This document shows, piece after piece, positions 3,654 through 33,833 of a stretch of DNA of 64,000 nt. Below the pieces are notes generated by a model, which made no database searches, was not told the DNA's origin, and saw only the letters and a program-made list of their open reading frames with translations. Location of the stretch: assembly GCA_937930175.1 (NCBI GenBank), contig CALGLP010000004.1, positions 2,163 to 66,162 of the forward strand, read 5' to 3'. A program made the translations under genes and the position numbers. The stretch comes from an uncultured bacterium (GTDB lineage: Bacteria > Omnitrophota > Gorgyraeia > Zapsychrales > Aceulaceae). How positions within the stretch are numbered: position 1 is the first letter of the stretch; each line of letters starts with the position of its first letter.

Positions 3654-3654
3654 A

Positions 3655-6621: not shown

Positions 6622-6759
6622 ATGAAAAAACATCTAAAGATACCAACAAAGATTAAAGGGAAAAAACGTCACGGTTTCCGTCGAAGAATGAAAACTGCTG
6701 ATGGGCGAAAAGTTTTGAAAAGACGACGTCAAAAAGGACGAAAAAAACTATCAGTTTAG
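6622..6759 (+). CDS. rpmH: 50S ribosomal protein L34
   Basis: My translation gives [45 protein letters not shown] (45 aa). It is below the ORF-track size cutoff. An AGGA-type RBS lies upstream. Confidence 0.9.
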
Positions 6760-6782
6760 TGTGACCCTGGTAGACAAGCACT

Positions 6783-6995
6783 GTGATGATAAAAATTTTG
6801 TCTTTTATGATCGTTTTTTATCAGAGGATAAAGCACGCGGTGGTTCCATCAACGTGTCGTTTTTATCCCTCCTGCTCCGAATATAGCCTTTTAGCTTTAA
6901 AGAAATACGGGCTTTTTAAAGGAATGATATTGTCTGTAAAACGCATATTACGTTGCTCTCCCCTGTCTGCGGGAGGGTTTGATCCCCTAAAATAG
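6783..6995 (+). CDS. yidD: Membrane protein insertion efficiency factor YidD
   Basis: 70-aa ORF with CRFYPSCSEYSLLALKKYG...RILRCSPLSAGGFDP, the YidD signature. Confidence 0.85.
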   Translation: MMIKILSFMIVFYQRIKHAVVPSTCRFYPSCSEYSLLALKKYGLFKGMILSVKRILRCSPLSAGGFDPLK

Positions 6996-7008
6996 AAAAA
7001 GGAATATC

Positions 7009-8622
7009 ATGGAAAAAAGAACATTTTTAGCTATTATATTATCAATATTTGTATTATTTGGGTATCAAACTCTTTTTGTCAACAAAGTAGCGAAAAATGT
7101 TCAGCCTTCATTAATTGATTCACAAACTATTGCAAAAGAAGAGTTTACATCTGATTTAAAAATAGACAAAATACAGAAAAATGATATCGTAAAAAATATT
7201 CAGGAAAATATTGAAAAAAAAATAATAACAATTGAGACTAGCAAGCTTTTGCTTACTTTTTCGAATATCGGCGGAGCGATCGTTGGAATTGATATAAAAA
7301 ATCAGCAAGTCCTCCCTGTCACAAATATTTCGACATTAATCGAATATGCAGATCTACCATTTGAACTTTTAAGTAATCGTAATGGTGAGGTTGTTTATAG
7401 GCTTGTTTTTGGTGATTATGAGATTACAAAAATTTATAATATGTCCAATCAGGATTATTTAGTAAATACTGAAATTTTAATAAAAAATATATCTAAAATG
7501 TCCAATGTGAAGAACGTAGAAATTGGAGCTTTTCAAGTTGATACAAAGTTAATAAAAAATAAAAAAGATAATGAAAATGGTTTATATGAATATAGTATTG
7601 CAACAGGAACGAAAACTATTCGAAAATCAAATGCTTACAAGTTTTCAGTCAAGGAGTCTAAGAGTGAAAATCAGCCTGTAAGATGGCTGGGATTTCGCGA
7701 TAAATTTTATTGTTCAGTGTTTAAACCAGAATTTGATGCTATCGGTTATAAAATAGATCCAGAAATAGAAACAAAGCTTAATATTTCTGTTGAGTCAAAA
7801 ACAACAAGTCTAAATCCAGGAGATCAAGTATCATTAAAAAGTACATATTATTTTGGGCCTCAAGATCAAGACTTACTGAAAAGTTACGAACTTGGCGATT
7901 TCGTTGTTTTTAGCCAGTTTGGATTGCTTGACATGATATCAAAATTTGTTATAAATATTGTTAAATTTATGCACAAATTTGTTCCAAGTCTGGGTTTATG
8001 TTTAATTCTTGTAAGTATTATAATTTATGGAGCAATGTATCCATTGACCATGAGCGGTATGCTTTCTATGAGAAAAATGCAAGCTTTGCAACCAAAAATG
8101 GCAAAGTTAAAGGAGCAATATAAGAATAATCCTCAGAAATTGAATCAAGAAGTAATGAATTTATATAAAGAAAATTCAATAAATCCATTTGGTGGATGCT
8201 TACCTTTTTTATTACAAATGCCAGTTTTTATAGCTCTTTATCAAGCGCTGTGGAGATCTGTTATATTTCAAGGCCAAGGATTCTTGTGGATTAAAGATTT
8301 AGCACTTCCAGATAGGTTTTTTATTTTACCCAACAAACTGCCTATAATAGGGGACGAAATCAATCTTTTACCATTATTAATGATGGTTGCTATGTTTTTT
8401 CAACAAAGACTTTCAACAAAGAATATGCCTGTTACAGATCCTAGTCAAGCTATGCAGCAGAAGATGATGGCATGGTTTTTCCCTATATTCCTAGGAGTTT
8501 TGTTTTATAAGTTCGCAAGCGGACTCAATCTTTATTTCACTGTATTTTACACGCTTTCAACTCTTACGCAGTTAAGAATGTCCAAAATGAACACATGTTT
8601 GGTACCAGAATCAAGGTCTTAA
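7009..8622 (+). CDS. yidC: Membrane protein insertase YidC
   Basis: 537-aa ORF with an N-terminal TM segment, a large periplasmic domain, and the conserved C-terminal core (NPFGGCLPFLLQMPVFIALY, LYFTVFY). Confidence 0.9.
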   Translation: MEKRTFLAIILSIFVLFGYQTLFVNKVAKNVQPSLIDSQTIAKEEFTSDLKIDKIQKNDIVKNIQENIEKKIITIETSKLLLTFSNIGGAIVGIDIKNQQVLPVTNISTLIEYADLPFELLSNRNGEVVYRLVFGDYEITKIYNMSNQDYLVNTEILIKNISKMSNVKNVEIGAFQVDTKLIKNKKDNENGLYEYSIATGTKTIRKSNAYKFSVKESKSENQPVRWLGFRDKFYCSVFKPEFDAIGYKIDPEIETKLNISVESKTTSLNPGDQVSLKSTYYFGPQDQDLLKSYELGDFVVFSQFGLLDMISKFVINIVKFMHKFVPSLGLCLILVSIIIYGAMYPLTMSGMLSMRKMQALQPKMAKLKEQYKNNPQKLNQEVMNLYKENSINPFGGCLPFLLQMPVFIALYQALWRSVIFQGQGFLWIKDLALPDRFFILPNKLPIIGDEINLLPLLMMVAMFFQQRLSTKNMPVTDPSQAMQQKMMAWFFPIFLGVLFYKFASGLNLYFTVFYTLSTLTQLRMSKMNTCLVPESRS

Positions 8623-8840
8623 AAACTGAGGATAAATTGAAGAAAGAAAATAGTGATAAAAAAGGTTTTGAATTTTACGGAAGAACAGTTGAAGAGTCAA
8701 TTCAAATGGCAATGAAAGAGTTCAATGTTCCACGTGAATCATTGGACATAAAGATAGTTTCTGAAGAGAAAAAAGGGCTTTTTGGTATGGATGGAGAAAA
8801 ACCAGCAAAAATTATTGCTTCTTTGAAGAAAAAGAAGTAA
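8595..8840 (+). CDS. Jag-like protein, N-terminal domain only (no KH/R3H part)
   Basis: 81-aa ORF directly after yidC. The segment GRTVEESIQMAMKEFNVPRESLDIKIVSEEKKGLFG resembles the Jag_N domain. The start codon is uncertain. Confidence 0.5.
   Translation: MFGTRIKVLKTEDKLKKENSDKKGFEFYGRTVEESIQMAMKEFNVPRESLDIKIVSEEKKGLFGMDGEKPAKIIASLKKKK
8726..8741. promoter_or_regulatory. parS centromere-like site (inside the jag-like CDS)
   Basis: TGTTCCACGTGAATCA matches 15 of 16 positions of the Bacillus-type parS TGTTCCACGTGAAACA. Confidence 0.65.
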
Positions 8841-8868
8841 TATGGTTTTGTAGAGAATTTATAAAAGC

Positions 8869-8884
8869 TGTTCCACGTGGAACC
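8869..8884. promoter_or_regulatory. parS centromere-like site upstream of parA
   Basis: TGTTCCACGTGGAACC matches 14 of 16 positions of the parS consensus and has a perfect GTTCCACGTGGAAC palindrome. Confidence 0.65.
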
Positions 8885-9008
8885 CCGTTTGAGAATTTGA
8901 TTGGTTGTCAGAAAAATGTTGGTGGAATGAAGCCCAGCCGAGAATCGTAATTAAGATGCAATTAAGATTTGAGATTCTCTGACGGGGTGGAACCCAGAGG
9001 GTATTTAA

Positions 9009-9806
9009 ATGGGAAAAATAATAGCTTTCTGTAATCAAAAAGGTGGAACAGGGAAGACGACAACAGCTGTTAATTTATCAGCAGCTTTAAGTGAGAAGAA
9101 TAAAAAAATACTTCTTGTTGATATGGATCCGCAGGGAAACGCAACAAGCGGACTAGGTATAAACAAAAATCAAATACAAAGATCTATATACGATGTTCTT
9201 TTAAATAAATCAAAAGTTAGTGATATCTCTGTCCAATCTGAATTTAAAAATCTTTTTGTTGCTCCATGTAATATTAATTTAACTGGAGCAGAGATTGAAT
9301 TGGTTGGTTCTTTGTCTAGAGAAACAAGGCTTAAGAGAGGCCTTGAGGAGATAAAAAGCGAGTATGATTACATTTTTATTGATTCGCCGCCGTCATTAGG
9401 ACTGATTACGTTGAATTCATTGGTTGCAAGCGATTCGATCATTATTCCTATCCAATGTGAGTTTTATGCCCTCGAAGGAGTCTCGCAACTTTTAAATACG
9501 ATTAATTTAATTAGGGAAGGTCTTAACCCAACTCTTCATATTGAGGGCGTTTTGATGACAATGGCAGACTTCAGAACAAATTTGACATCTGAAGTTATTA
9601 ATGAAATTAAGACTTTTTTTAAGGATAAGGCCTACAAAACAGTTATTCCAAGAAACGTTAAATTAAGTGAAGCGCCAAGCTTTGGAAAGCCGATTTCTGT
9701 TTATGATCGTAATTCAATCGGCGCAAAGAAGTATGAGCAGTTTGCAAGAGAATTTCTCGGCGAGAAGATAGCAGAAGAGACTGAAAAGATTCTTCAGACA
9801 AATTAA
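9009..9806 (+). CDS. parA: Chromosome partitioning ATPase ParA/Soj
   Basis: 265-aa ORF with the deviant Walker A CNQKGGTGKTTTAVNL and DMDPQGNAT. Confidence 0.9.
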   Translation: MGKIIAFCNQKGGTGKTTTAVNLSAALSEKNKKILLVDMDPQGNATSGLGINKNQIQRSIYDVLLNKSKVSDISVQSEFKNLFVAPCNINLTGAEIELVGSLSRETRLKRGLEEIKSEYDYIFIDSPPSLGLITLNSLVASDSIIIPIQCEFYALEGVSQLLNTINLIREGLNPTLHIEGVLMTMADFRTNLTSEVINEIKTFFKDKAYKTVIPRNVKLSEAPSFGKPISVYDRNSIGAKKYEQFAREFLGEKIAEETEKILQTN

Positions 9807-9821
9807 CAAGGGGAAGAGAAA

Positions 9822-10673
9822 ATGGAAAAAAGTGCTTTAGGAAAAGGCCTGTCTGCTTTGATTCCCGAGAATTTTAAAAGTGATACCGATGAAAGTATTG
9901 CGTATGTCAATATTTCTCAAATTCAGAAGAATAACTTTCAGCCGCGTAAAGAATTTAAAGAAGAGAAATTATCTGACCTTGTTTCTTCTATCAAAGAAAA
10001 AGGAGTTCTTCAGCCGCTTTTGTTACGCAAAAAAGGTGATGGATATGAACTTATCGCAGGTGAGCGACGTTTGCGAGCTGCGCAGTCTTTAAATATTGAA
10101 AAAGTTCCAGCGATCATCAAATCAGCCACTGATGAAGAATCTTTAGTCTTGGCTTTAATTGAAAACATTCAGCGTGAAGATCTTAACCCAATTGACGAAG
10201 CAAAGGCTTATCGACGATTGGTTGAAGATTTTAGTTTTACACAAGACCATGTGGCACAATCAGTTGGGAAAGATAGGACAACCGTTACAAACATGTTGAG
10301 ATTATTGACTCTGCCTGAAGAAATTCAAAAAAGTATCGTAGACGGTGCTTTCTCTGTTGGTCATGCGCGAACAATTTTGTCGGTCAAAGATAGGATGCGA
10401 CAAACGTTTTTATGGAAGAAAACCATTGATAAAGGATTTTCCGTTCGTGAACTTGAGAATATTATCAAATCTGAAGAGAGTGCCCAAGAGGGGAAGCGAA
10501 AAGTTGGCGCTGAGAAAAAAGATCCTTATGTAGTTTCTGTGGAGGAGGACTTGCAACGCGCTTTAGGAACAAAGGTTCGTCTTGTGACAAAGAAAAAAAG
10601 AGGAACAATTGTTATTGAGTATTATTCGAATGACGACCTAGGCCGCATCATCAAGGCCATTGTTCGTTCTTAA
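9822..10673 (+). CDS. parB: Chromosome partitioning protein ParB/Spo0J
   Basis: 283-aa ORF with the ParB box GERRLRAA, NIQREDLNPIDEA, and an HTH region. Confidence 0.9.
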   Translation: MEKSALGKGLSALIPENFKSDTDESIAYVNISQIQKNNFQPRKEFKEEKLSDLVSSIKEKGVLQPLLLRKKGDGYELIAGERRLRAAQSLNIEKVPAIIKSATDEESLVLALIENIQREDLNPIDEAKAYRRLVEDFSFTQDHVAQSVGKDRTTVTNMLRLLTLPEEIQKSIVDGAFSVGHARTILSVKDRMRQTFLWKKTIDKGFSVRELENIIKSEESAQEGKRKVGAEKKDPYVVSVEEDLQRALGTKVRLVTKKKRGTIVIEYYSNDDLGRIIKAIVRS

Positions 10674-17396: not shown

Positions 17397-17433
17397 TTGT
17401 TTACAGTAGCGAATAATTAATAAAGAGAAAAAA

Positions 17434-17475
17434 AGAAAGGTGCGCCTGTTGGTATGACAACAGGCGCACCTTTCT
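17434..17475. terminator. Hairpin terminator after rplT (18-bp perfect stem)
   Basis: AGAAAGGTGCGCCTGTTG-GTATGA-CAACAGGCGCACCTTTCT, with an A-run upstream and T-rich sequence downstream. The core GTGCGCCTGTTG/CAACAGGCGCAC recurs at 18759. Confidence 0.6.
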
Positions 17476-17586
17476 TATCTTGTTATTTTGTTTTGTGTCC
17501 CCGCTTTTGGTGAATATAACCCTACCTTGTCAATCTTTTTTTCTATGCTATCCTTATCTTAGGATACAGGTAAAAAAGGAGGAAAA

Positions 17587-18714
17587 ATGTTATTTCGAGG
17601 TTTATTAAAAAGTATGCTACGGCTGTGGTTGTTGGGGCTTTTTATTTTAAGTGTATGTCCTATTGTTTTAGCAAATACTCTTTTTGTGCCTAGCCAATAT
17701 GCGCAAATTCAGCAAGCGATTGATGTCGCGCAGGCCGGGGATACCGTTTTCGTAGAGGCAGGGGTCTACGATATTCTGGACAGCATTCACATGAAAGAAA
17801 AAGTTAACTTGGTCGGCGCTGGCAGTCAGGTTACTGTTTTAAATGGCATCGATGAGATGGAGGTTCTTGTTTATGGGGCGAGTCATAGCCTGCTCTCAGG
17901 ATTTAAGCTTAAAAAAGAAATTGCTTCAACTGGAGTGCCCACGTATGGCGTGGCCGTTTATCTTGACAATGTCCGGCAGATGGTGATTAAGGATAATGGT
18001 GTGGTCGGGCATATGGATATCGGCATCTATTTAAAATCTAGCCATTATAATGTTCTTGAAAACAATATTGTCAAATCCATCGAGGATGACAAGGTGATTA
18101 GCCATGCCCTTTCACTGAATGCCTCTTCTTATAACTACATTCTTGATAATTCTGTCGATGGGTTTTGGGCGGGAATTTTTTCCTATTATGGAAAGAATAA
18201 TAAAATAGAACACAATTTTGTGCGCAAGGTCGAATTCCTCTATGGGCAGTCAACAGGGGGAGCCATCCATCTTTTTACCGAGAAAGATACAACGCTATTA
18301 CATAACACATGCTTGAGCATGACGCAGAACGTGACTCCGGGAGGAGGCTTAACGCTAGAGTATCCTCTTAATGTTCAGGTTAATAATTGTTTAATTTATG
18401 GAAAAAAACATGGGCTTTATGTTTCGGGAGACCTACCGGCAGCAGTTTCGATTCAATATAGCGATATTAAAGGTGAGGAGCAAGATGTTGTGTTGAGTGG
18501 AAGCATTAATCCTGTTTACGGCAGCGGCGTTTTGTTTCTTCCGCCTAAGGTGAATTTGGGGAGTGGAGCGCTTTATGCCAACTCGCCTTGCCGCAACGCA
18601 GGGGACCCAGGAACGCCTCATGATCCTGATGGATCAATAGCGGATATAGGGGCTTTTTATTATGTTCTTCCGAGCAGTCCTCCTGTGCCTAATATTCGGC
18701 GTGATAACAAGTAG
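17587..18714 (+). CDS. Secreted right-handed parallel beta-helix repeat protein
   Basis: 375-aa ORF with an N-terminal signal/TM segment (LWLLGLFILSVCPIVLA). Repeated units (NNIV..., LDNSV..., HNF..) are typical of pectate-lyase-fold/NosD-like beta-helices. Confidence 0.55.
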   Translation: MLFRGLLKSMLRLWLLGLFILSVCPIVLANTLFVPSQYAQIQQAIDVAQAGDTVFVEAGVYDILDSIHMKEKVNLVGAGSQVTVLNGIDEMEVLVYGASHSLLSGFKLKKEIASTGVPTYGVAVYLDNVRQMVIKDNGVVGHMDIGIYLKSSHYNVLENNIVKSIEDDKVISHALSLNASSYNYILDNSVDGFWAGIFSYYGKNNKIEHNFVRKVEFLYGQSTGGAIHLFTEKDTTLLHNTCLSMTQNVTPGGGLTLEYPLNVQVNNCLIYGKKHGLYVSGDLPAAVSIQYSDIKGEEQDVVLSGSINPVYGSGVLFLPPKVNLGSGALYANSPCRNAGDPGTPHDPDGSIADIGAFYYVLPSSPPVPNIRRDNK

Positions 18715-18758
18715 AGGTATTTTTTAGGGATAAGTATTTGGGATTGATATGTTTTTTG

Positions 18759-18798
18759 GTGCGCCTGTTGTTGTGACAACAGGCGCACTTCTTTTTTA
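18759..18798 (+). terminator. Rho-independent terminator after the beta-helix gene
   Basis: GTGCGCCTGTTG-TTGTGA-CAACAGGCGCAC followed by TTCTTTTTT. The stem arms are the same as in the hairpin at 17434. Confidence 0.6.
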
Positions 18799-18903: not shown

Positions 18904-19950
18904 ATGTCCTCTTGGAATTTTAACGAACTTACGTTAACCGCAGAACAAGAAATTCAATCTGTTGTTGATATTGAAGCCCTTGAGCTTTTGCGCGTCAAAT
19001 ACCTTGGCCGCAAAGGACTTGTAGCTCAGATCTATGATGGCTTGGCCCAAGCTTCACCTGAAGAAAAACCGTTGATTGGCAAGGGCGCCAACGAATTACG
19101 TAAGAAAGTCACTGAGCTTCTGGAATCAAAGCGCGTAACCCTTGTAGAGGGGAATCTTTCTCTACAAAGCTCCGCAGACACCCTTGATTTAACTCTGCCT
19201 GGCGTTGCCCCAGAGCTTGGTCGACGACATATTTTATCGCAAACGATCAATGATATCTGCAGCATTTTTGAACATTTAGGCTTTGCAGTTTTTGAAGGCC
19301 CGGAAATTGAAACTGAGTTTAATAATTTTACCGCGCTTAATATTCCCTTGGATCACCCTTCGCGTGATGCCTTTGATACATTTTATCTTAAAGAAAAAGA
19401 TCCTCAAAGTCCTGCGCGCCATTTGCTGTTGCGCAGCCATACGTCGCCGGCACAGATTCGCGTAATGCAAGCGCATAAGCCACCCTTGGCCGTGATTGTT
19501 CCAGGCAAGGTGTATCGACCTGATGCTATGGACGCGAGCCATTCCTACATGTTTCACCAAATTGAAGGACTCGTGATCGACGAGAACATTACATTTGCAG
19601 ATCTTAAGGGATTTCTGACTAATTTCTGTAAGAAATTTTTTGGCCCGGACATCAAGATGCGTTTTCGTCCGCATTTTTTCCCTTTTACAGAACCATCAGC
19701 TGAGGTCGATATTTCGTGTTATATTTGTGGTGGGCGGGGTTGTTCGGTGTGCGGTCGTAAAGGGTGGCTTGAGATCTTAGGTTGCGGCATGGTCCACCCG
19801 AAGGTGTTTGAGGCCGTAAAATATCCTAAGGGTCAATATGCCGGCCTGGCCTTTGGTATGGGTGTTGAACGCATTGCAATGCTTAAGCACGGCATCAACG
19901 ACATTCGCTTGTTCTATGAAAATGATTTAAGGTTTTTGAAACAGTTTTAA
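18904..19950 (+). CDS. pheS: Phenylalanyl-tRNA synthetase alpha subunit
   Basis: 348-aa ORF with class II motifs (HPSRDAFDTFY, FRPHFFPFTEPSAEVD, GMGVERIAML). Confidence 0.95.
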   Translation: MSSWNFNELTLTAEQEIQSVVDIEALELLRVKYLGRKGLVAQIYDGLAQASPEEKPLIGKGANELRKKVTELLESKRVTLVEGNLSLQSSADTLDLTLPGVAPELGRRHILSQTINDICSIFEHLGFAVFEGPEIETEFNNFTALNIPLDHPSRDAFDTFYLKEKDPQSPARHLLLRSHTSPAQIRVMQAHKPPLAVIVPGKVYRPDAMDASHSYMFHQIEGLVIDENITFADLKGFLTNFCKKFFGPDIKMRFRPHFFPFTEPSAEVDISCYICGGRGCSVCGRKGWLEILGCGMVHPKVFEAVKYPKGQYAGLAFGMGVERIAMLKHGINDIRLFYENDLRFLKQF

Positions 19951-19971
19951 TGAAGGAAAGGAAAAGAAGGA

Positions 19972-21492
19972 ATGAAAAAAATCGTTTTTGGGATATTGTT
20001 TGGTGTTTGTTTTTGTTCTTTGACTTTTGCCGAGAGCTTGACGCTTACCACTTATTATCCAGCACCGTTTGGAATGTATAAAGAGATGCGGGTGATGGGG
20101 AAGTTGGGGGTTGGGATAACAGATCCAACACATAAGGTAGAGATTGTGCCAGATGCTGGTCAAGGAGCCCTTGTTACTGGAACAGGAAACACTGCGTCAG
20201 ATGGTTCCTCTGCTTTTGGCACAGGAAATTCAGTGAGTGGAACCAAATCTCTTGCTTCAGGAACTGGCAATACCGTTTCAGGGAATACATCTTTTGCTTC
20301 AGGAACCGGTAATACCGTCTCTAGTGCAACATCTTTTGCTTCAGGAGCTTCTAACACTGTTTCAGGAATTCAGGCTTTTGCTTCTGGGACAGGAAATGAT
20401 GTTTCTGGAGCTTTATCCTTTGCTTCCGGTGTATCCAACATTATCTCCGCAACAGGAAGTCAGTCTGCCGCCTTTGGCTGGGAAAATAACATAACGAAGC
20501 CTTCGAGCTTTGCCACAGGTTACGGCAATACGGTTAGCAGTCAGCAGTCTTTTGCTGGGGGTGAGCATGTAACAGCGCAAGCTGCAAATTCTTTTGTTTT
20601 TGGAAGATACAATGTTGTTTCTGGGAGTCCTGTGAGCTGGGTTCCAACCGAGCCTTTGTTTGTTCTTGGAAATGGAACAAGCGCCACTCCGTCTAACGCC
20701 ATGACTGTCTTAAAGAATGGTAAAGTTGGTGTTTCTACTGCGTTGCCGCAAGCAACTCTTCATGTTGGTGATGGCATAGGTATGCCACCTGTCGGATCTG
20801 CTGAAGCGTTGACTTTAATAGGAACGGTGGCGAATCAACCAGCCTTAATTGCTGTTTCTAGGCCTACAAGCGATCCTGATCCTGCGAGCATAGCAACAGG
20901 ACGCATGGCTGTTTATGCTGCAGGGCTTGACTATGGCATTTATTCTGCTCAAGGAGAAAATTATTTTGCAGATAGCGTAGGCATTGGAGCGCCATCGGGA
21001 ACACAAAAACTACATGTCTACAACGATACCTCTCCATACACCGCAACAATTACAAAGAATTCTGATAGCAATGGCGCTGCTTTGCAGATTTACTCTGGAA
21101 ATGGTGGAATGTCTTGGGTAGGGGGAAAAGCAGGCATATATATGAACAATGCCAACGGGCATTACGGCATTTTTCAGGCAACGAATTCTGGAGCGACAAA
21201 AAATTATTTTGGAGGCAACGTGGGCATCGGAGTTGTAGATCCCACGGTGTCTTTGGACGTTTCTGGTCAGGCGCGTATTCAAATTGCGGAAACTAATGGA
21301 TCATGTACGAGTGCGGCTGATGGAGGGAAACTAAATTTTACACCAGCAGTAACTTATATGTGTGGAGGGAGTTCATATACTACGTCAGTTTTGCGTCTTT
21401 GTTCCAGGGATCATGGTGGTACTTGGGCTTGGCGGCAGGTGCAAGGCGCGTGGTCTGGAGATCTTTGCGGATCGGCAGCTTTGCCGGATTAA
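19972..21492 (+). CDS. Secreted repeat protein, paralog 1 (14-residue SFASG..N.VSG repeats; adhesin/fibre-like)
   Basis: 506-aa ORF with a signal peptide and then ESLTLTTYYPAPFGMYKEMRVMGKLGVG. About 10 tandem 14-residue repeats resemble YadA-head/Hep_Hag beta-roll repeats. A conserved neck (FVFGRYN...PLFVLGNG...NAMTVLKNGKVGV) is followed by a Cys-containing C-terminal domain. Confidence 0.6.
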   Translation: MKKIVFGILFGVCFCSLTFAESLTLTTYYPAPFGMYKEMRVMGKLGVGITDPTHKVEIVPDAGQGALVTGTGNTASDGSSAFGTGNSVSGTKSLASGTGNTVSGNTSFASGTGNTVSSATSFASGASNTVSGIQAFASGTGNDVSGALSFASGVSNIISATGSQSAAFGWENNITKPSSFATGYGNTVSSQQSFAGGEHVTAQAANSFVFGRYNVVSGSPVSWVPTEPLFVLGNGTSATPSNAMTVLKNGKVGVSTALPQATLHVGDGIGMPPVGSAEALTLIGTVANQPALIAVSRPTSDPDPASIATGRMAVYAAGLDYGIYSAQGENYFADSVGIGAPSGTQKLHVYNDTSPYTATITKNSDSNGAALQIYSGNGGMSWVGGKAGIYMNNANGHYGIFQATNSGATKNYFGGNVGIGVVDPTVSLDVSGQARIQIAETNGSCTSAADGGKLNFTPAVTYMCGGSSYTTSVLRLCSRDHGGTWAWRQVQGAWSGDLCGSAALPD

Positions 21493-21558
21493 AAGGATTC
21501 GTAAAAATTAAAGCTGTGCTATCGGTAATTTAATATTTTCTTAAAGGGAGGAAACGAA

Positions 21559-23046
21559 ATGAAAAAAATCTTTTTTGGGATATTGTTTAGTGTTTGTTTT
21601 TGTTCCCTGGCTTTTGCCGAGAGCTTAACGCTTACGACGTATTATCCAGCACCGTTTGGAATGTATAAAGAGATGCGTGTGATGGGGAAGTTGGGGGTTG
21701 GGACAACGGCGCCTGTAGCCAAAACTGAAATTGTAGCTTCTGGGGCAGAAGGAGCCCTTTTGGTTGGAACAGGAACAGTGACAAATTTATCCTCTGCTTT
21801 TGGTACAGCTAATACGGTGAGCGGAACTAAGTCTTTTGCTTCTGGAGCATCTCATAGCGTTACTGGCGATCAATCCGCTGCTTTTGGCTCAGCTAATCCG
21901 GTGGGAGGAGATAATTCTTTTGCGGCAGGAATAAATAATGATGTTTCTGGAGACAAATCTTTTGCTTCTGGAGAGTCCAATCTCGTGCCTGGGGCCAAGT
22001 CTTTTGCTGCTGGAAAATCAAATACAGCTTCCGGAGACCATGCTTTTGCTGCCGGGGAAGGCGTGACAGCGCAAGCTTACGATTCCTTTGTTTTTGGAAG
22101 GTGGAATATTATTGCAGGAACTTCAGACGCTTGGGTTGATGCTGACCCTTTGTTTGTTGTTGGAAACGGAAGAGATAATGCTGCCAACAGATCCAACGCT
22201 GTGACTGTCTTAAAGAATGGAAGCGTTGGGATCAACACTAGTGTTCCTGAGTATAGCATGAGCTATCTTGAAATCTTTGATGATGCGACTAATGGCGCAA
22301 ATGGCATGCAGATAACATCAGGGGCTTCTTCAGAGGATGATCCTAGAATTATCTTGAAGCGAAGGCATGGCATTCCAAACAATAATAATGATGGGTTTAG
22401 CATTGCCTATGATCGAAGCGCAGATTCGCTAGACACTTCTTATGTTAACGCTAATCTTACAGGAAATCCTCTTTTGACAATTAAACAAGCTGGCAACGTT
22501 GGCATAGGAACCACCGATCCTGCCTCTCGGCTTGATGTTGGCAACGGAACGATTACCCTGGGGTCTGGGAATATTTCTAATGCAGGAGATGCTGATCGAG
22601 GTATTTTTATTGATAGCGATGGTAATATTGGTCTAAACAAGACAGACCCGGACGTTCTTACTCATGTTGGAGCGTGCTCGGGAGGATCTTGCTGGGCCGA
22701 AGATGCAACGATTTTTAAAGTAGATGGGCGGGCTGACACAGGACATCTTGTTGTTGGGACCTATGCGGTTCCGCGAAATGCTTATGTTTACGGATATATT
22801 CGTCCTTCATGGTCTTCCGCTCCGTGTGATGTTGATCACATAGGTGCGATTCGAGTAGCACAATATGCAGCTGCAGGAAGTAATCGTTGCGCTTTAGAGG
22901 TTTGTTATCCTGGTCAATCGAAGTATTGGAATGGCATAGCGTGGACGGTTGTTCAGCCAACTAGCATGAGCTGGAAAGGAACATGTCATCTTATTGACGG
23001 AGGAGCAGTTGTACCTTATGAAACCACTCCTGCTATTACTGATTAA
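21559..23046 (+). CDS. Secreted repeat protein, paralog 2
   Basis: 495-aa ORF. The first ~50 residues are almost identical to paralog 1, and it shares the same repeat type and neck motif (FVFGRWN...PLFVVGNG...NAVTVLKNGSVGI). The C-terminal half is unrelated. Confidence 0.6.
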   Translation: MKKIFFGILFSVCFCSLAFAESLTLTTYYPAPFGMYKEMRVMGKLGVGTTAPVAKTEIVASGAEGALLVGTGTVTNLSSAFGTANTVSGTKSFASGASHSVTGDQSAAFGSANPVGGDNSFAAGINNDVSGDKSFASGESNLVPGAKSFAAGKSNTASGDHAFAAGEGVTAQAYDSFVFGRWNIIAGTSDAWVDADPLFVVGNGRDNAANRSNAVTVLKNGSVGINTSVPEYSMSYLEIFDDATNGANGMQITSGASSEDDPRIILKRRHGIPNNNNDGFSIAYDRSADSLDTSYVNANLTGNPLLTIKQAGNVGIGTTDPASRLDVGNGTITLGSGNISNAGDADRGIFIDSDGNIGLNKTDPDVLTHVGACSGGSCWAEDATIFKVDGRADTGHLVVGTYAVPRNAYVYGYIRPSWSSAPCDVDHIGAIRVAQYAAAGSNRCALEVCYPGQSKYWNGIAWTVVQPTSMSWKGTCHLIDGGAVVPYETTPAITD

Positions 23047-23083: not shown

Positions 23084-25204
23084 ATGAAAATATCTTTAAA
23101 TTGGCTCAAAGAGTATATTAATTCTAAGCTTTCTGCAAAGGAGCTTGCGCATCGGCTGACACTTTCTGGACTGGAAGTCGAGAAAGAGGAGATTGTCTCC
23201 GTTGATTCGATTTATCTTGGTTTGAGCTCAGGGGAAATCGAGACGTCCCCGCGTTCTATAGGGTCAAAACCAAGGAAGCTAGGGGACGATACGGTTTTTG
23301 AACTAGAGATCACGCCTAACAGGCCGGATTGCTTGAGCTTGATCGGTATTGCGCGAGAGCTTTCCGCGATCCTTAACGTGCCGCTTAAGACGCCCAAAGT
23401 CGGCAAGATCAAGATTCCTTCCAAAAAGTGTTCGATTGTTATCGAGGATAAAAAAGATTGCGCAAGGTATATTGGTGCGATTTTGACAGATGTCAAAATC
23501 GCACCATCTTCGGTGCGCATACAAGCCTTCTTAAGCGCGATCGGGCTTCGTCCGGTTAACAATATTGTGGATATAACGAACTTTTGCTTGATGGAAACCG
23601 GACAGCCCATGCACGCCTTTGATTACGACAAGCTTTCCGGAGGAAAGATTGTTGTGCGCCGCGCCAAGCCTGGCGAGAAATTGATTGCCATCAACGACGT
23701 GGAATACACCCTTGATCCTTCTATTCTTGTGATTGCCGATGCCGAGCGCGCGGTCGCAATCGCAGGCATTATGGGTGGCAAGGCTACGGAAGTCACAGCG
23801 AAAACAAAAAATATTTTGCTTGAAAGTGCGTCTTTTGATCCGCTTTTGATCCGTCGAGCATCCCGCAAGCTTGGCCTTCGCAGTGATGCATCGTATCGTT
23901 TCGAACGCGGCGTGGATATGGACATGGTTTACAAAGGATGCCTTCGAGCCGTGAGCTTGATGCTTGAAATTGCCTCAGGAACCTTTACTTCTTTGGCTGA
24001 TGTGGCTCAAGGAAAATCTAAAAAGCAAAAGCCTGTTTCGATTGTTTTTGATATTAAAAAAGCAACGAAACTTTTGGGCACCGCAATTTCTTCTTCTCAG
24101 GCCAAGAATATTTTAACAAAGCTTGAGTGTAAGGTTAGCTCAGCAGCCAAGGGAGGACTCAAGGTTTCTCCGCCGTCATTTCGTGCGGATATTAAAACGG
24201 ACGTGGATGTCATTGAGGAGATTGGCCGTATTATTGGTTTTGATCGCTTGTCCTCTCGCCTTTGCGCCATTAATCCTTTGAACATCGCAACAGACAAAAA
24301 GCGTATGTTCAAAGAAAAGCTTGCCACGCTTCTTGTTTCCCAGGGTTGCAGCGAGATTGTTTCTTATACAACGCTAAGCACCGCAGACCTTGTCAAGGCC
24401 AAGGTGTCCCTGCAAGGTCTTGTGTACAATCAGAATTTTCTTAATGAAGACCAAGAAGTGATGCGGCCTTCGTGCTTGCCGAGCATGCTCAATGTCCTAG
24501 GACATAATGTGAAGAACGGGCAGAAGAATTTAAGGTTTTTTGAAATAGGTAAGATTTATTTGCCGTCGGGTGAGAAGGATGTCTTTGTGATTGGGCTTAC
24601 GGGAGTACCGGCTCATGACTGGCGTTCGCCACAGACAAGAAAGAATGATTTTTATGATATCAAGGGTATTGTTGCGAACGCGTTTGAATTTTTTAAGGCG
24701 CAAGGCCTTGTTTTTCGGTCAGGGCAACATGTGTCTTTGGATCCCCAGGAAACCATGGACATTATTTTTGCAGGGCAAGCCGTGGGTTTTCTCGGCAAGA
24801 TTAAAAAAAATATTCTCAGCGCTTGGGATATTAAACATCAGGATGTTTTTTTTGCGCAAATCTTCATTGACGGTTTATGTCAGCATGATGCCAAGCGGAT
24901 TGCCGCTTATGTGCCTTTAAATGCTTATCCAAGCATTGTGCGCGATGTTAGCCTTGCACTCAAGAAAGAGATCAGCTATCAAAGCATTAAAGAGGCTATT
25001 GTTCATCTCCGCGAGCCGCTTTTGAAAAGCATTGATTTTGTTGAGCAGTATCTCGGCGACAAGATTTCTCCTGGACAAAGGGGCATGACCATTTCTTTGG
25101 TTTATCAATCATCGAGCAAGACGCTCACTGAGCAAGAAGTTGAAGAGGCACACCAGCGCATTTGTAGCCACATTGTGAGCGCGTTTCAGGCTGTTAAAAG
25201 ATAG
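23084..25204 (+). CDS. pheT: Phenylalanyl-tRNA synthetase beta subunit (short form)
   Basis: 706-aa ORF with MKISLNWLKEYI..., ITPNRPDCLS, B3/4, B5 and the C-terminal ferredoxin-fold anticodon-binding domain. The N-terminal OB-fold tRNA-binding domain appears replaced by a short linker. Confidence 0.9.
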   Translation: MKISLNWLKEYINSKLSAKELAHRLTLSGLEVEKEEIVSVDSIYLGLSSGEIETSPRSIGSKPRKLGDDTVFELEITPNRPDCLSLIGIARELSAILNVPLKTPKVGKIKIPSKKCSIVIEDKKDCARYIGAILTDVKIAPSSVRIQAFLSAIGLRPVNNIVDITNFCLMETGQPMHAFDYDKLSGGKIVVRRAKPGEKLIAINDVEYTLDPSILVIADAERAVAIAGIMGGKATEVTAKTKNILLESASFDPLLIRRASRKLGLRSDASYRFERGVDMDMVYKGCLRAVSLMLEIASGTFTSLADVAQGKSKKQKPVSIVFDIKKATKLLGTAISSSQAKNILTKLECKVSSAAKGGLKVSPPSFRADIKTDVDVIEEIGRIIGFDRLSSRLCAINPLNIATDKKRMFKEKLATLLVSQGCSEIVSYTTLSTADLVKAKVSLQGLVYNQNFLNEDQEVMRPSCLPSMLNVLGHNVKNGQKNLRFFEIGKIYLPSGEKDVFVIGLTGVPAHDWRSPQTRKNDFYDIKGIVANAFEFFKAQGLVFRSGQHVSLDPQETMDIIFAGQAVGFLGKIKKNILSAWDIKHQDVFFAQIFIDGLCQHDAKRIAAYVPLNAYPSIVRDVSLALKKEISYQSIKEAIVHLREPLLKSIDFVEQYLGDKISPGQRGMTISLVYQSSSKTLTEQEVEEAHQRICSHIVSAFQAVKR

Positions 25205-25394
25205 GATCTTAACGATCGAGCGCTTCTTGATCTTTCCCTGCAGTGTTCGTCGGAAGCCAAATATACTGAACCAATACAGTATATAAGGGAGCATTCGTTC
25301 TGTTAAATGTCTGCGGACATTTCAGAGAAGCACCCACTTGTAACGAACGGTTCATGTTACTAAGCTTCTGACGGCACAGGCGGGGTTCATTATT

Positions 25395-32082: not shown

Positions 32083-32156
32083 TGCCCTGTCGTCTAATGG
32101 TAGGACTCAAGATTCTGGATCTTGCTATCATGGTTCGAGTCCATGCGGGGCAGCCA
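32083..32156 (+). tRNA. tRNA-Gln (CUG)
   Basis: Acceptor TGCCCTG/CGGGGCA, anticodon stem CAAGA/TCTTG with loop TTCTGGA, and T arm CATGG-TTCGAGT-CCATG. CCA is encoded. Length 74 nt. Confidence 0.9.
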
Positions 32157-33833
32157 ACCTTGACGCTCAGGCGAACTTCGAGCGTTCGATACAGTAACAA
32201 GCGCCTTGCAGGCATCCCCTGCAGGGCGCTTGTCATTTTTAGGGGCTTTTTGGGTCTCCGGGGCGGGCAGGCTGCATGAAATGCTGTCAACGGTGGGCTG
32301 GTCTATATACATTTTGATTTCGATATAATCCTTGTAAACGACGATTTCCTTGATCATGGCTTGTATAAGGCTCTTCTGGGCTTCCGGAGGGGCCTTTTCG
32401 ATATATTGCATGGCAAACCTAAGGTTTGAGTGCAAGAATTGCCCCGAGCTTGCCGACATTTGAGCCACGTTCTTTTTAGCCTGCAGTTTTTCCAGCTCGT
32501 CTTCTAGCCTGACAATCTCCTCATCAAGCCTCGCCATCTTGTCCTTGTAAGTCTTCCCTTGCGATATCCTGTTGTCCATAGCCAGTTCAAGAAGCCTGTT
32601 CGCTTCCTGTTTGGTCTCTTCAAGTTTCTCCTGGAGAGGCTTCATCATTTTCTCAAGGGCCTCGAGTTTTATCTGGGAATCAAGGATTGCGTCTCCGATC
32701 GCCTTTACGATGATGTCCTGATCAGTAGATGCCCGCTTGAAATAATCGATAAGCGCCTCATCAAAGCCCCTGGCAGAGAACCTAGACACATCACAGCCTA
32801 ATTTCTGCTTGGACCTGCCGCATACATAATAAAAGAATTTCTCAGCTGCCTGGCCGTTGCCGCTTTCGCAGACATAGTGGCTTCCGCATTCGCCGCACTT
32901 AAGGAGCCCGGCTAAGAGGTAGATATACTCCGGGGTCTGTTTTATAAAGCGATGCCCGGGAAGTTTTGCGGTGAGGACCCGGTTTGCCTTTAACCATAAC
33001 TCTTCGTCCACAATAGCAGGATGAGTGCCTTTGTGGATCTCCTTGCCGTATTTTATATAACCCTTGTGAAATTGATTCTTTATAATCCAGGCAATGCTCT
33101 GCTTGCGCCAGACTTTACCCGTAGGAGTCTTTATGCCTCTGCGGATTAACTCCTGTCCGATATCATAAAGCGACTTGTTATTAGCGGCCATCTCCCAGAT
33201 AAAGCGCAGCTTATTTCCTGTTTCAGGATCGACAATAATTTTATGCGGCTGCCTGCCGTTTGGAAGAGGCGCGCCGTCTGGTATCAATTTATAACCGAAG
33301 GGCACGTTGCCACCAACCCACCTGCCTTGTCGCACCCTGGCAACGCAGGAGGCCTTCACGCGCTCGCCGATGAGCTCCCGCTCAAAAGCCGATAGAATAC
33401 CGAGTATGCCGATTACTACCCTGCCTATGGCAGTTGAGCTATCAAGGTTTTCGCGTACGGATACGAAAGCGATCTCTTTGGAGTTGAATAGATCAATAAG
33501 CCAGTAGAGGTCACGGGTATTGCGGGTTAAGCGGTCAAGACGGAAGAAGATTATTCCGTCAAACGCGGCAGTTTTTCTGCGCACGTGGTCAATAATCATC
33601 TGGATGCCGGGTCTGTTGAGATCCTTGCCGGAATAGCCGTCGTCTTTTACCACGCCTTTATTGCCTATATCGGCAAGCTCATGCCCGAACGCATCCAGCA
33701 GATTCCTGCAGTGGTAGGTCTGGGCATCCAGGGTAGTAAAATCTCCCTGGGCCTGGTCGTCGGTAGAGCAGCGCGTATATATAACGTAGCGTTTTTTCTT
33801 ACGGGTATTATCTGTTTTAACATTCATAGCCAT
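32094..33833 (-). CDS. Large serine recombinase (phage integrase)
   Basis: 579-aa ORF with the N-terminal resolvase domain YVIYTRCSTDDQ (catalytic Ser) and LDRLTRN, a recombinase domain, a zinc-ribbon region (CGECGSHYVCES...YYVCGR) and a coiled coil. The last ~60 codons run through the terminator and antisense to tRNA-Gln, so the true or functional 3' end is uncertain. Confidence 0.85.
   Translation of the reverse strand: MAMNVKTDNTRKKKRYVIYTRCSTDDQAQGDFTTLDAQTYHCRNLLDAFGHELADIGNKGVVKDDGYSGKDLNRPGIQMIIDHVRRKTAAFDGIIFFRLDRLTRNTRDLYWLIDLFNSKEIAFVSVRENLDSSTAIGRVVIGILGILSAFERELIGERVKASCVARVRQGRWVGGNVPFGYKLIPDGAPLPNGRQPHKIIVDPETGNKLRFIWEMAANNKSLYDIGQELIRRGIKTPTGKVWRKQSIAWIIKNQFHKGYIKYGKEIHKGTHPAIVDEELWLKANRVLTAKLPGHRFIKQTPEYIYLLAGLLKCGECGSHYVCESGNGQAAEKFFYYVCGRSKQKLGCDVSRFSARGFDEALIDYFKRASTDQDIIVKAIGDAILDSQIKLEALEKMMKPLQEKLEETKQEANRLLELAMDNRISQGKTYKDKMARLDEEIVRLEDELEKLQAKKNVAQMSASSGQFLHSNLRFAMQYIEKAPPEAQKSLIQAMIKEIVVYKDYIEIKMYIDQPTVDSISCSLPAPETQKAPKNDKRPAGDACKALVTVSNARSSPERQGWLPRMDSNHDSKIQNLESYH
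32197..32240 (+). terminator. Rho-independent terminator downstream of tRNA-Gln
   Basis: ACAAGCGCCTTGCAGG-CATCC-CCTGCAGGGCGCTTGT (16-bp stem with one G-U pair) followed by CATTTTT. It is T-rich only on the plus strand. Confidence 0.6.

What the first reader, a model, noticed from the sequence alone, without database searches (positions are those of the whole stretch)
19972..23046. Tandem paralogs with ~93% identical 5' ends, shared 14-residue repeats and unrelated C-terminal domains: possible variable surface fibre/adhesin pair
The first ~146 nt of the two genes differ at only ~10 positions, encoding a signal peptide plus ESLTLTTYYPAPFGMYKEMRVMGKLGVG. Both then carry SFASG-x2-N-x-VSG-type 14-mers (YadA-head/Hep_Hag-like) and a conserved neck (FVFGR(Y/W)N...PLFV(L/V)GNG...TVLKNG.VG). 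The last ~230 residues are unrelated and have different Cys patterns. High nucleotide identity confined to the 5' end, next to divergent 3' halves, is the pattern expected from gene conversion or cassette exchange of receptor-binding domains. The YYPAPFGMY N-terminal module directly after the signal-peptide cleavage site may be an anchoring or assembly module.
Basis: seen in the sequence. Interest (0 to 1): 0.5.

Follow-up and report, generated by a model that had tools for sequence, protein, structure and literature searches.

The report
Swappable-tip surface fibre genes inside pheST
Two neighbouring genes wedged between the two phenylalanyl-tRNA synthetase genes of an uncultivated Omnitrophota bacterium most likely encode exported, adhesin-like fibres that share a near-identical front end, apparently kept alike by DNA copying between the genes, but carry different tips; this makes them good candidates for how these tiny, probably host-dependent bacteria recognise partners.

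Summary
Genes A (19972-21492) and B (21559-23046) differ at 10 of their first 146 nt. Identity then drops to about 60% through a YadA-like head and neck, and to background in the C-terminal halves.

At least 12 Omnitrophota genomes carry 1-4 such genes in the same slot between pheS and pheT. Within a genome the 5' ends resemble each other (74-96% nt) more than they resemble any other genome's (57-74%). The C-terminal tips instead group by type across genomes, and their order differs between genomes. This pattern indicates concerted evolution of the 5' end plus tip and cassette turnover.

Each protein is a chimera with five parts:
- a Sec signal peptide;
- an undescribed 28-residue N-module (xTLTTYYPAPFGxYxEMR);
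- a head and neck like those of trimeric autotransporters;
- shaft motifs like those of Bdellovibrio MAT fibres;
- Cys-containing tips.

There is no autotransporter anchor and no phage context.

In three unrelated high-GC genomes, fibres with the same N-module sit in type IV pilus/T2SS-like operons directly after four minor-pilin genes. This suggests the module docks to, or is exported by, that machinery.

I rate this a new variant of a known kind (modular trimeric adhesive fibres). Function is inferred, not shown.

The parts
18904..19950 (+). pheS, the upstream conserved flank of the fibre slot
   Evidence: ORF. Homologues carry PF02912/PF01409 in the same position. Only 21 nt separate it from gene A.
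19957..20120 (+). Homogenised 5' tract, copy 1 (RBS, signal peptide, N-module)
   Evidence: Direct repeat D3, 164 nt, 90% identical to 21544-21707. 10 differences in the first 146 coding nt.
19972..21492 (+). Fibre gene A (506 aa), type-A tip
20032..20115 (+). N-module of A (aa 21-48, ESLTLTTYYPAPFGMYKEMRVMGKLGVG), directly after the predicted signal-peptide cleavage site
   Evidence: tblastn. The family consensus has invariant T, Y, P, P, G, Y across 96 distinct sequences. No Pfam or NCBIfam model covers it.
20206..20589 (+). YadA-like head of A: nine 14-residue repeats (aa 79-206)
   Evidence: Repeat register. 42-nt tandem repeat. AF2 pLDDT >90 with strands every 14 residues. Foldseek matches to the BpaC, CbpF, AtaA and UspA1 heads.
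20590..20739 (+). Neck of A (SFVFGRYN...PLFVLGNG...TVLKNGKVGV)
   Evidence: Aligned to B. The same consensus is seen in 32 relatives. pLDDT is 85-95.
21214..21489 (+). Type-A tip: GNVGIG connector plus a 4-Cys knob ending ...ALPD
   Evidence: Orthologous tips in P0002, P0007, P0008 and P0011 (38-49% identical). It aligns as an elaborated version of a widespread C..AG.[IL][RK][YF]...C...W knob.
21544..21707 (+). Homogenised 5' tract, copy 2
21559..23046 (+). Fibre gene B (495 aa), type-B tip
21619..21702 (+). N-module of B, identical in protein sequence to that of A
21790..22083 (+). YadA-like head of B: seven 14-residue repeats (aa 78-175)
   Evidence: phmmer matches to BpaC 7o23 (E 1.2e-7) and AtaA 3wp8 (1.2e-6).
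22084..22239 (+). Neck of B (SFVFGRWN...PLFVVGNG...TVLKNGSVGI)
22492..23043 (+). Type-B tip region: GNVGIGTTDPASRLDV connector plus a 6-Cys domain ending ...AITD
   Evidence: Orthologous tips in P0003 and P0086 (33-40% identical), aligned with B' tips. The connector matches Bdellovibrio Bd2133 (8ond, E 6.5e-4). The AF2 model of the tip is poor (pLDDT 53).
23084..25204 (+). pheT, the downstream conserved flank; 37 nt after gene B
   Evidence: ORF. Pfam B3_4/B5/tRNA_synthFbeta/FDX-ACB on the identical gene in L001.

Best explanation
Genes A and B most likely encode Sec-exported, probably trimeric, modular surface fibres of an Omnitrophota bacterium.

Each protein has five parts:
1. a cleavable signal peptide;
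2. a 28-residue N-module shared by a large, undescribed family;
3. a YadA-type beta-roll head and neck;
4. shaft connectors of the GNVGIG..P..LDV type, also found in Bdellovibrio MAT fibres and phage tail fibres;
5. a disulfide-bonded tip domain that differs between the two genes.

The genes occupy an ancient slot between pheS and pheT and are probably co-transcribed with them. In different Omnitrophota this slot holds 1-4 such genes.

Shown by comparison:
- The 5' ends (RBS to about nt 150) are repeatedly homogenised within each genome by gene conversion or unequal recombination between the tandem direct repeats.
- The tips are drawn from a pool of types shared between genomes and are reshuffled in order and number.

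Inferred:
- The tips bind different ligands on partner or host cells or on surfaces.
- The invariant N-module is the common element that delivers or docks every fibre to the same cell-surface machinery. The gene neighbourhoods of distant relatives suggest that this machinery is a type IV pilus/T2SS-like apparatus.
- The conserved pheS and pheT flanks and the shared 5' tract provide homology for cassette replacement and for expansion or contraction of the array.
For: Architecture:
- Signal peptide and N-module by inspection.
- Head: Pfam LbR_Ice_bind in the window genes and YadA_head in relatives. PDB sequence matches to the BpaC, AtaA, CbpF and UspA1 heads. AF2 pLDDT >90 for aa 70-260, and Foldseek probability 1.0 to the same heads.
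- Shaft: a profile containing the GNVGIG connector hits five Bdellovibrio MAT fibre structures (8ond 3.7e-12, 8oml 4e-6, 8ojn 3.5e-5, 8on4 2.8e-4, 8ol4 0.012). B also hits tail-fibre PHROG 9942.
- The even Cys counts in the tips (4 and 6) fit an extracytoplasmic protein.

Conserved slot:
- pheS-[fibres]-pheT is seen in the window, L003, L004/L031, L005, L008/L022, L009+L011/L023, L010, L017/18, L019, L025, L028/29, L027/30 and L043, with 1-4 genes.
- The intergenic gaps are 21, 66 and 37 nt, and none contains a terminator-like hairpin.

Concerted evolution:
-.
- L004 and L031 are 99.96% identical over 10.1 kb. They differ only in a roughly 15-nt patch of gene 1, where L004 carries gene 2's version.

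Tip modularity:
-.
- No tip type is repeated inside a locus (0/16 pairs), while types recur between loci (29/237).

N-module family:
- 107 of the fetched proteins carry it at a median start of residue 28, giving 96 distinct variants with invariant T-x-Y-P-x-P-x-G-x-Y.

Pilus link:
- Three distinct genomes (cluster representatives <50% identical to each other) have an N-module fibre placed between four minor-pilin genes and pilM/O-secretin-ATPase-platform-pilin.
- T4a pili are nearly universal in Omnitrophota (PMC10066038).

Analogy:
- MAT fibres have a signal peptide, a conserved N-domain thought to bind a cell-surface element, and swappable tips (PMC10769870).
Against: - No experiment or expression data were available. 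Surface location, trimer formation and binding are all inferred.
- The AF2 monomer gives low confidence for the N-module and for both tips. The B-tip fold search returned nothing meaningful.
- No route across the outer membrane is evident. There is no autotransporter barrel, no S74 chaperone in A or B, and no partner gene in the locus.
- The pilus-operon association comes from distant, high-GC relatives and not from Omnitrophota. No pilus genes lie in this 64-kb window.
- The species itself shows no variation across three assemblies.
- The L004/L031 difference lies inside a roughly 600-nt exact repeat and could be an assembly artefact.
- The excess of non-redundant tips within loci is not statistically significant with this sample.
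Confidence: 0.6

Rival explanations
1. The near-identity of the 5' ends reflects only strong purifying selection on an essential N-terminal peptide after an old duplication. No gene conversion is involved.
For: The N-module is extremely conserved at the protein level across the whole family. In L017 the two paralogs keep the module but have different signal peptides, so homogenisation is not obligatory.
Against: - The signal-peptide DNA and the roughly 25 nt upstream of the ATG, which are weakly constrained, are also homogenised within genomes: 92/89/96% within against 57-74% between.
- Synonymous codon identity is higher in the tract (35/41 vs 60/99).
- Paralogs cluster by genome at the 5' end but by tip type at the 3' end.
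Confidence: 0.08
2. The N-module is not an anchor. It is an export or sorting signal recognised by an outer-membrane translocon, such as a T2SS-like secretin system whose dedicated cargo is the fibre. The fibres are then released or held on the surface by other means.
For: The module lies immediately after the signal peptide in all members. Fibres are encoded inside T2SS/T4P-like operons in three genomes. T2SS cargo genes often neighbour their secretion genes (general knowledge, e.g. pulA). Cys-rich tips imply folding in the periplasm before export.
Against: T2SS substrates are not known to use linear N-terminal signals (general knowledge). The position directly after four minor pilins resembles the PilY1 slot of T4P operons more than a cargo position. 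This rival is not exclusive of docking.
Confidence: 0.2
3. These are phage-derived tail fibres: prophage remnants, or receptor-binding proteins of a tailocin or contractile injection system.
For: There is weak similarity to tail-fibre PHROGs. Relatives carry the Peptidase_S74 chaperone typical of tail fibres. A lambda-like prophage lies 9 kb downstream in the window.
Against: - The genes sit between pheS and pheT in at least 12 genomes, with housekeeping neighbours and no phage genes.
- The prophage is separated from them by pheT, mgsA, rny, ymdB and gltX, and has its own tip protein J.
- The N-module was not found in 2.9 million IMG/VR contigs.
- The proteins have Sec signal peptides, which virion fibres lack.
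Confidence: 0.04
4. They are secreted beta-roll proteins with a non-adhesive role, such as ice-binding/antifreeze or a structural sheath or S-layer-like coat.
For: Pfam LbR_Ice_bind scores above its gathering cut-off (30.9 and 43.3 vs 30). The ryegrass ice-binding protein 3ult is matched. Some relatives come from a genus named Candidatus Aceula lacicola.
Against: - TAA heads match better than 3ult in both sequence and fold (B: 1.2e-7 vs 0.013; Foldseek 5.7e-5 vs 2.6e-3).
- Many array members lack the beta-roll head altogether yet keep the N-module and tips.
- Tip diversification is not expected for an ice-binding or coat role.
Confidence: 0.06

Closest known systems
Bdellovibrio bacteriovorus MAT (mosaic adhesive trimer) fibres (Caulton et al. 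2024, PMC10769870; PDB 8ond, 8oml, 8ojn, 8on4, 8ol4)
   Same: Both have a Sec signal peptide, a conserved N-terminal element common to all paralogs, a shaft with GNVGIG..P..L.V connectors, interchangeable C-terminal tips, and S74 and non-S74 subclasses across the family. Both occur in an organism with a host-dependent or predatory lifestyle. The surface element that holds the N-terminus is unidentified in both.
   Different: - The MAT N-domain is about 130 aa and beta-rich. Here the common element is a 28-residue module, and the head starts about 55 residues after the cleavage site.
- The window proteins carry a TAA-type head and neck.
- The genes sit in a fixed pheS-pheT slot with 5' homogenisation.
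- The tips are small Cys knobs without PDB relatives.
Trimeric autotransporter adhesins (YadA, UspA1, BpaC, AtaA, CbpF)
   Same: Both have a 14-residue left-handed beta-roll head and a neck, with significant sequence and fold matches.
   Different: There is no C-terminal 12-stranded barrel anchor and no coiled-coil stalk. The polarity is reversed: here the conserved, presumably cell-proximal end is N-terminal and the variable end is C-terminal.
Phage tail fibres with conserved N-terminal attachment regions and recombining receptor-binding tips (e.g. S74-chaperoned fibres; the adenovirus fibre tail motif docking on penton base)
   Same: Both follow the same modular logic of a conserved docking end and a swappable distal tip. 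Relatives have the S74 chaperone.
   Different: These are chromosomal housekeeping-operon genes with signal peptides. There are no virion genes nearby, and the module is absent from IMG/VR.
PilY1/PilC-type pilus-tip adhesins encoded after minor pilins in type IV pilus operons
   Same: In three distant relatives the N-module fibre occupies the gene slot after four minor pilins and before the assembly genes.
   Different: There is no sequence relationship to PilY1. In Omnitrophota the genes are not in pilus operons. The association is guilt by neighbourhood only.
Variable surface-antigen loci flanked by conserved housekeeping genes (e.g. O-antigen between galF and gnd; pneumococcal cps between dexB and aliA), from general knowledge
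   Same: A hypervariable gene set lies between conserved flanks that can serve as homology arms for replacement. Copy number and content differ between lineages.
   Different: Here the flanks are the two subunits of one essential enzyme, normally adjacent and co-translated. The cargo is protein fibres, not polysaccharide genes.

Membership tests
Trimeric autotransporter adhesin (TAA) | YadA-like head repeats (Hep_Hag/YadA_head beta-roll) | tested here: met
   phmmer matches to BpaC, AtaA, CbpF and UspA1. Foldseek probability 1.0, E 5.7e-5 to 2e-4. PF05658 is present in relatives.
Trimeric autotransporter adhesin (TAA) | C-terminal YadA_anchor beta-barrel translocator | tested here: not met
   No such Pfam hit at E<=1 in A or B, and none among the precomputed domains of 120 relatives. 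The C-termini are Cys-containing tips.
Trimeric autotransporter adhesin (TAA) | Coiled-coil stalk | tested here: not met
   The AF2 model has no helices apart from the signal peptide and two 3-residue turns.
Bdellovibrio MAT fibre superfamily | Signal peptide followed by a conserved ~130-aa beta-rich N-terminal domain (PMC10769870) | tested here: not met
   Only about 55 residues lie between the predicted cleavage site and the first head repeat, and the conserved part is 28 aa. Direct sequence comparison with a MAT N-domain was not possible, because no MAT N-terminal sequence was available.
Bdellovibrio MAT fibre superfamily | Shaft built from repeated GxVGIGTxxPxxxLxV connectors (trimeric beta-prism/helix) | tested here: met
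   B aa 304-340 vs Bd2133 (E 6.5e-4). Profile A6 vs five MAT structures, 3.7e-12 to 0.012. This is motif-level evidence only.
Bdellovibrio MAT fibre superfamily | Variable C-terminal tips, with S74 and non-S74 classes | tested here: met
   A and B are non-S74. N-module relatives such as P0134, P0152 and P0181 end in Peptidase_S74. At least 9 tip types were found in the arrays.
Bdellovibrio MAT fibre superfamily | Trimer formation and surface display | not testable with these tools
   Only monomer prediction was available.
Phage tail fibre | Encoded with virion or tail genes, or found in viral genomes | tested here: not met
   The context is housekeeping genes in at least 12 genomes. No confirmed match in IMG/VR.
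Paralogs under concerted evolution (gene conversion) | A tract more similar between paralogs of one genome than between orthologs, with a sharp boundary and raised synonymous identity | tested here: met
Type IV pilus tip adhesin (PilY1-like role) | Gene located in the minor-pilin operon | tested here: not met
   Not met for the window genes, which lie in the pheS-pheT slot. Met for three distant N-module relatives.
Grass-type ice-binding beta-roll (PF21300) | Pfam score above the gathering threshold | tested here: inconclusive
   Scores are 30.9 and 43.3 against a cut-off of 30. The same residues match TAA heads better. Ice binding itself is not testable here.

The most novel reading that the evidence does not exclude
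The xTLTTYYP(A/S)PxGxYxE(L/M)R module is a universal plug. It docks interchangeable trimeric fibres onto the minor-pilin tip of a type IV pilus (or onto a T2SS-like pseudopilus). Omnitrophota and other uncultivated bacteria would then carry pili with swappable, phage-tail-like receptor-binding fibres. The pheS-pheT array would be the organism's host-range cassette, diversified by recombination between the shared 5' tracts.
Probability: 0.2. Interest if true: 0.8.

Novelty: new variant of a known kind. Interest (0 to 1): 0.58.

Why it matters
Omnitrophota are abundant, uncultivated and mostly ultra-small bacteria thought to depend on hosts. How they recognise and attach to partners is unknown; so far only giant ORFs and pili have been discussed (PMC10066038).

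This locus is a compact, conserved and easily located set of candidate recognition proteins. Its tips could be expressed and used to find ligands or hosts.

It also defines an undescribed N-terminal module shared by hundreds of fibre-like proteins. Its repeated placement in pilus/T2SS-like operons gives a testable lead to a question left open for the Bdellovibrio MAT fibres: what holds such fibres on the cell.

Finally, it is unusual for variable surface genes to be maintained between the two subunit genes of an essential aminoacyl-tRNA synthetase.

Tried and rejected
- A search of the 5.8-billion-protein set with the 59-aa N-terminus returned only two fragments. A search with the B C-terminal half returned only weak GNVGIG-type hits. 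The word-index search is unsuited to these queries; the exhaustive HMM search worked instead.
- The AF2 model of the B tip was poor (pLDDT 53) and its Foldseek search gave only noise. No fold assignment is made for either tip.
- PDB sequence searches with the tips alone found nothing beyond the GNVGIG connector.
- Pfam, NCBIfam and PHROGs have no model for the N-module or the Cys knob.
- A literature search for the motif strings found nothing relevant.
- An inversion or shufflon-type switch was rejected. There are no inverted repeats in or around the pair, and the only recombinase nearby belongs to the prophage.
- A lipoprotein anchor was rejected. The window signal peptides lack a lipobox, and most relatives have no Cys in the signal peptide (by inspection).
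- Cluster look-ups gave almost no organism names. The assignment to Omnitrophota rests on the record titles of the related loci.


Full report
**1. Observation**

The region holds two same-strand ORFs, A (19972..21492, 506 aa) and B (21559..23046, 495 aa).
- Their first 146 nt differ at 10 positions. Differences accumulate immediately afterwards: 17 by nt 160 and 34 by nt 200.
- A repeat search finds a 164-nt direct repeat, 90% identical, that starts 15 nt upstream of each ATG (19957-20120 and 21544-21707).
- Codon-aligned windows give 92-93% nt identity for codons 1-50, 57-72% for codons 51-256, and 33-49% afterwards.
- Against the 62.8% identity of the remaining alignable part, 136/146 has a binomial tail of 2e-17.

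The proteins share a signal-peptide-like N-terminus and the identical 28-mer ESLTLTTYYPAPFGMYKEMRVMGKLGVG. They then carry nine (A) or seven (B) 14-residue SFASGxxNxVSG-type units and a conserved neck.

After the neck, BLASTP finds only one 38-residue GNVGIG-centred match. The mature proteins have 4 and 6 cysteines respectively, at different spacings. One nuance is that both tips contain a C-x5-G-x-[LI]-[NR]-[FV] core that recurs in the wider family.

**2. Context**

The two genes lie between pheS (18904..19950) and pheT (23084..25204), in a thrS-infC-rpmI-rplT-...-pheS-A-B-pheT-mgsA string close to the replication origin (dnaA, dnaN, gyrB / yidC, parAB).
- The gaps are 21, 66 and 37 nt.
- No terminator-like hairpin lies in them, whereas strong hairpins follow rplT and the gene before pheS.
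- Co-transcription with pheST is therefore likely, but it is inferred.

The closest named relatives are Candidatus Omnitrophica/Omnitrophota MAGs, including Candidatus Aceula lacicola.

**3. What the proteins are**

Head and neck:
- Pfam gives only the beta-roll family LbR_Ice_bind. Relatives also score YadA_head, and many score Peptidase_S74.
- Against the PDB, both proteins match heads of trimeric autotransporter adhesins (BpaC, AtaA, CbpF, UspA1, BoaA).
- An AF2 model of A is confident (pLDDT >90) for residues 70-260, with a strand every 14 residues. Foldseek returns the same heads with probability 1.0.
- There is no autotransporter anchor and no coiled-coil stalk. These are therefore not TAAs.

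Shaft:
- The GNVGIGTxxPxxxLDV connector that precedes the tips matches Bdellovibrio Bd2133.
- A profile of connector plus tip hits five MAT-fibre structures (3.7e-12 to 0.012), solely through the connector.
- The MAT paper describes a signal peptide, a conserved N-terminal domain thought to bind a cell-surface element, a trimeric shaft, swappable tips, and S74 and non-S74 classes (PMC10769870). That is the closest functional analogue.

Tips:
- The tips have no PDB or Pfam relatives.

**4. A conserved, variable slot**

The same pheS-[fibre genes]-pheT arrangement occurs in at least 12 other genomes.
- One gene: L019, L029, L043.
- Two genes: L003, L004/L031, L005, L017/18.
- Three genes: L022, L023.
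- Four genes: L025.
- Sources.

This includes lineages whose N-module belongs to a different sub-type (L017, L019). The insertion is therefore old.

Tips cluster into types that are shared between genomes.
- Type A: window A, P0002, P0007/8, P0011; 38-49% identical.
- Type B: window B, P0003, P0086; 33-40% identical.
- There is also a related B' type, Cys-rich C and D types, and others.
- Their order differs: window A-B, L003 B-A, L005 B'-A, L022 D-A-C, L025 C-D-B-C'.
- No locus repeats a type (0/16 within-locus pairs against 29/237 between loci). This difference is not significant with this sample.

**5. Concerted evolution of the 5' end**

In four genomes with tandem copies:
- The signal-peptide DNA is 92, 89, 96 and 74% identical within the genome, and 57-74% identical between genomes.
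- The 63-nt core of the module differs at 4, 4, 0 and 9 nt within genomes and at 8-17 nt between genomes.
- The high-identity tract begins near -25 and ends at +150 to +220. In L004 it runs to about +690.
- Identical-codon use among identical residues is 35/41 in the tract and 60/99 afterwards (p=0.005).

Paralogs therefore group by genome at the 5' end and by tip type at the 3' end. This excludes a recent whole-gene duplication and also excludes simple purifying selection.

A possible recent event is visible. L004 and L031 are 99.96% identical over 10.1 kb and differ only in a roughly 15-nt patch of gene 1, where L004 carries gene 2's frameshifted version. Because the patch lies inside a long exact repeat, assembly mixing cannot be excluded.

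For the window's own species, two further assemblies are 100% identical. No within-species polymorphism was seen.

No inverted repeats exist that could support an inversion switch. Tandem direct repeats 1,587 nt apart fit gene conversion and unequal crossing-over, which would also explain arrays of 1-4 genes.

**6. The N-module**

An exhaustive HMM search with a 40-residue profile returned 164 cluster representatives at E<=1e-10. Part of the wider hit list comes from giant proteins that match only the GxVGIGTTxP half.
- Among the fetched proteins, 107 carry the module at a median start of residue 28, directly after a signal peptide.
- 96 distinct versions share invariant T-Y-Y/F-P-x-P-x-G-x-Y.
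- The consensus is A-[ED]-x-[IVL]-T-[LIF]-T-T-Y-Y-P-[AS]-P-[FYR]-G-[VM]-Y-x-[ED]-[ML]-R.
- No Pfam or NCBIfam model covers it, and no paper was found that mentions it.
- It was not found in IMG/VR.

Bodies and tips behind the module are very diverse. They include S74-chaperoned fibres, YadA heads, a small disulfide knob (C..AG.[IM]RYN...LE[YF]C...W), and even an intein-containing member.

**7. A lead on mechanism**

In three unrelated high-GC genomes (L016, L040, L041), whose fibre proteins are <50% identical to each other, an S74 fibre with the module lies inside a type IV pilus/T2SS-like operon. The gene order is:
1. four genes with prepilin-type N-termini;
2. the fibre gene;
3. pilM/N, pilO and a PilP-like gene;
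4. the secretin;
5. an MshE/T2SSE ATPase;
6. the T2SSF platform;
7. the major pilin.

That is the slot held by PilY1 in classical operons. T4a pili are nearly universal in Omnitrophota (PMC10066038).

The most economical reading is that the module is the common handle by which all these fibres are docked to, or exported by, one surface machine, possibly this pilus-like apparatus. This step is inferred. No pilus gene lies in the window.

**8. Rivals**

- Pure selection without conversion is disfavoured by the homogenised signal-peptide and upstream DNA.
- Phage or tailocin origin of the locus is disfavoured by the conserved housekeeping context, the signal peptides and the absence from viral contigs. 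The fibres are nevertheless clearly evolutionary relatives of tail fibres.
- An ice-binding or coat role is suggested only by a Pfam family that the TAA heads out-score.
- An export-signal role for the module remains open and is compatible with the main model.

**9. Verdict**

It is a new variant of a known kind: modular, probably trimeric adhesive fibres with a conserved proximal end and swappable tips. Three features appear undescribed:
- the 28-residue N-module family;
- the fixed, copy-number-variable slot inside the pheST operon, with concerted evolution of the 5' ends;
- the recurrent placement of module-bearing fibres in pilus/T2SS-like operons.

Noticed in passing
window 17433-17476 and 18758-18789, flanking ORF 17587-18714: The same GC-rich palindrome (GGTGCGCCTGTTG...CAACAGGCGCACC, terminator-like) occurs only twice in the window. 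The two copies bracket a secreted right-handed beta-helix protein gene (Beta_helix/NosD/pectate-lyase-like) inserted between rplT and pheS. A relative (L010) has rplT and pheS adjacent, and other relatives have trkA/trkH there. It looks like a lineage-specific insertion that duplicated the rplT terminator.
   Followed up: partly
L004 5901-6090 and 7546-7735; L031 about 5025-5135 and 6669-6780: In a related genome both fibre genes (L004), or only the second (L031), carry a +1 frameshift right after the N-module (AAGTCTTGGGGGTAGGG instead of AAAGTTGGGGGTAGGG). The two assemblies are otherwise 99.96% identical over 10 kb. This could be a pseudogene, an off-switch, a recent conversion or an assembly artefact; which one is unresolved.
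   Followed up: partly
L016 954-10825; L040 7175-19441; L041 5394-13649: Fibres carrying the N-module and an S74 chaperone sit between four minor-pilin genes and pilM/O-secretin-ATPase-platform-pilin genes in three high-GC genomes of unknown taxonomy. In L040 and L041 the flanks are also conserved (uvrA-TPR-exbB-exbD-DUF2582-cutA).
   Followed up: partly
L017 6392-8431 / L018 8001-10040 (protein P0239): One pheS-pheT fibre gene of a distant Omnitrophota lineage contains a Hint/intein-like domain (PT-HINT, Vint, Intein_splicing) in the middle of the fibre. Its partner gene is a YadA-head + S74 fibre.
   Followed up: no
C-termini of window A (21478-21489) and B (23032-23043), and of relatives: Type A, B and B' tips end in a Pro/Gly-rich tail followed by a hydrophobic residue, any residue, and Asp or Glu as the last residue (ALPD, AITD, NLTD, PSID, TFID, VFID, APID, PPED, SPIE, NSIE). 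28 of 107 module proteins end in D or E. This may be a C-terminal recognition or processing signal.
   Followed up: no
relatives P0004, P0023, P0143, P0218, P0239, P0251, P0262 (residues about 45-95): In the 'YDRLRLVPR' sub-family, the small disulfide knob that elsewhere forms the fibre tip (C..G.[LM]YY...[LF].[FV]C...W) follows the N-module directly at the N-terminus.
   Followed up: no
window 32083-32153, 32094-33833 (-), about 34700-56000: A tRNA gene abuts a large serine recombinase. This is followed by a lambda-like prophage: sigma-like regulator, ParB-methylase, terminase gpA, lambda-family portal, tail tube, minor tail protein L and tip attachment protein J (1206 aa). It is a probable prophage of an Omnitrophota host.
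   Followed up: partly
window 25232-25390 (+): A 6S RNA (Rfam RF00013, 66 bits) lies immediately downstream of pheT and upstream of mgsA.
   Followed up: no
window 892-10673: This is the chromosomal origin region. gyrB, dnaN and dnaA are on the minus strand and yidC, parA and parB on the plus strand. GC skew changes sign at about 4-6 kb. The fibre locus is therefore only about 15 kb from oriC.
   Followed up: no
L042 1230-6925: A separate array of three tandem YadA-head fibre genes (629, 616 and 632 aa; the sub-family with STYYPSPYAGYDELRLVPR) lies outside the pheS-pheT slot, next to a peptidoglycan-binding protein gene.
   Followed up: no
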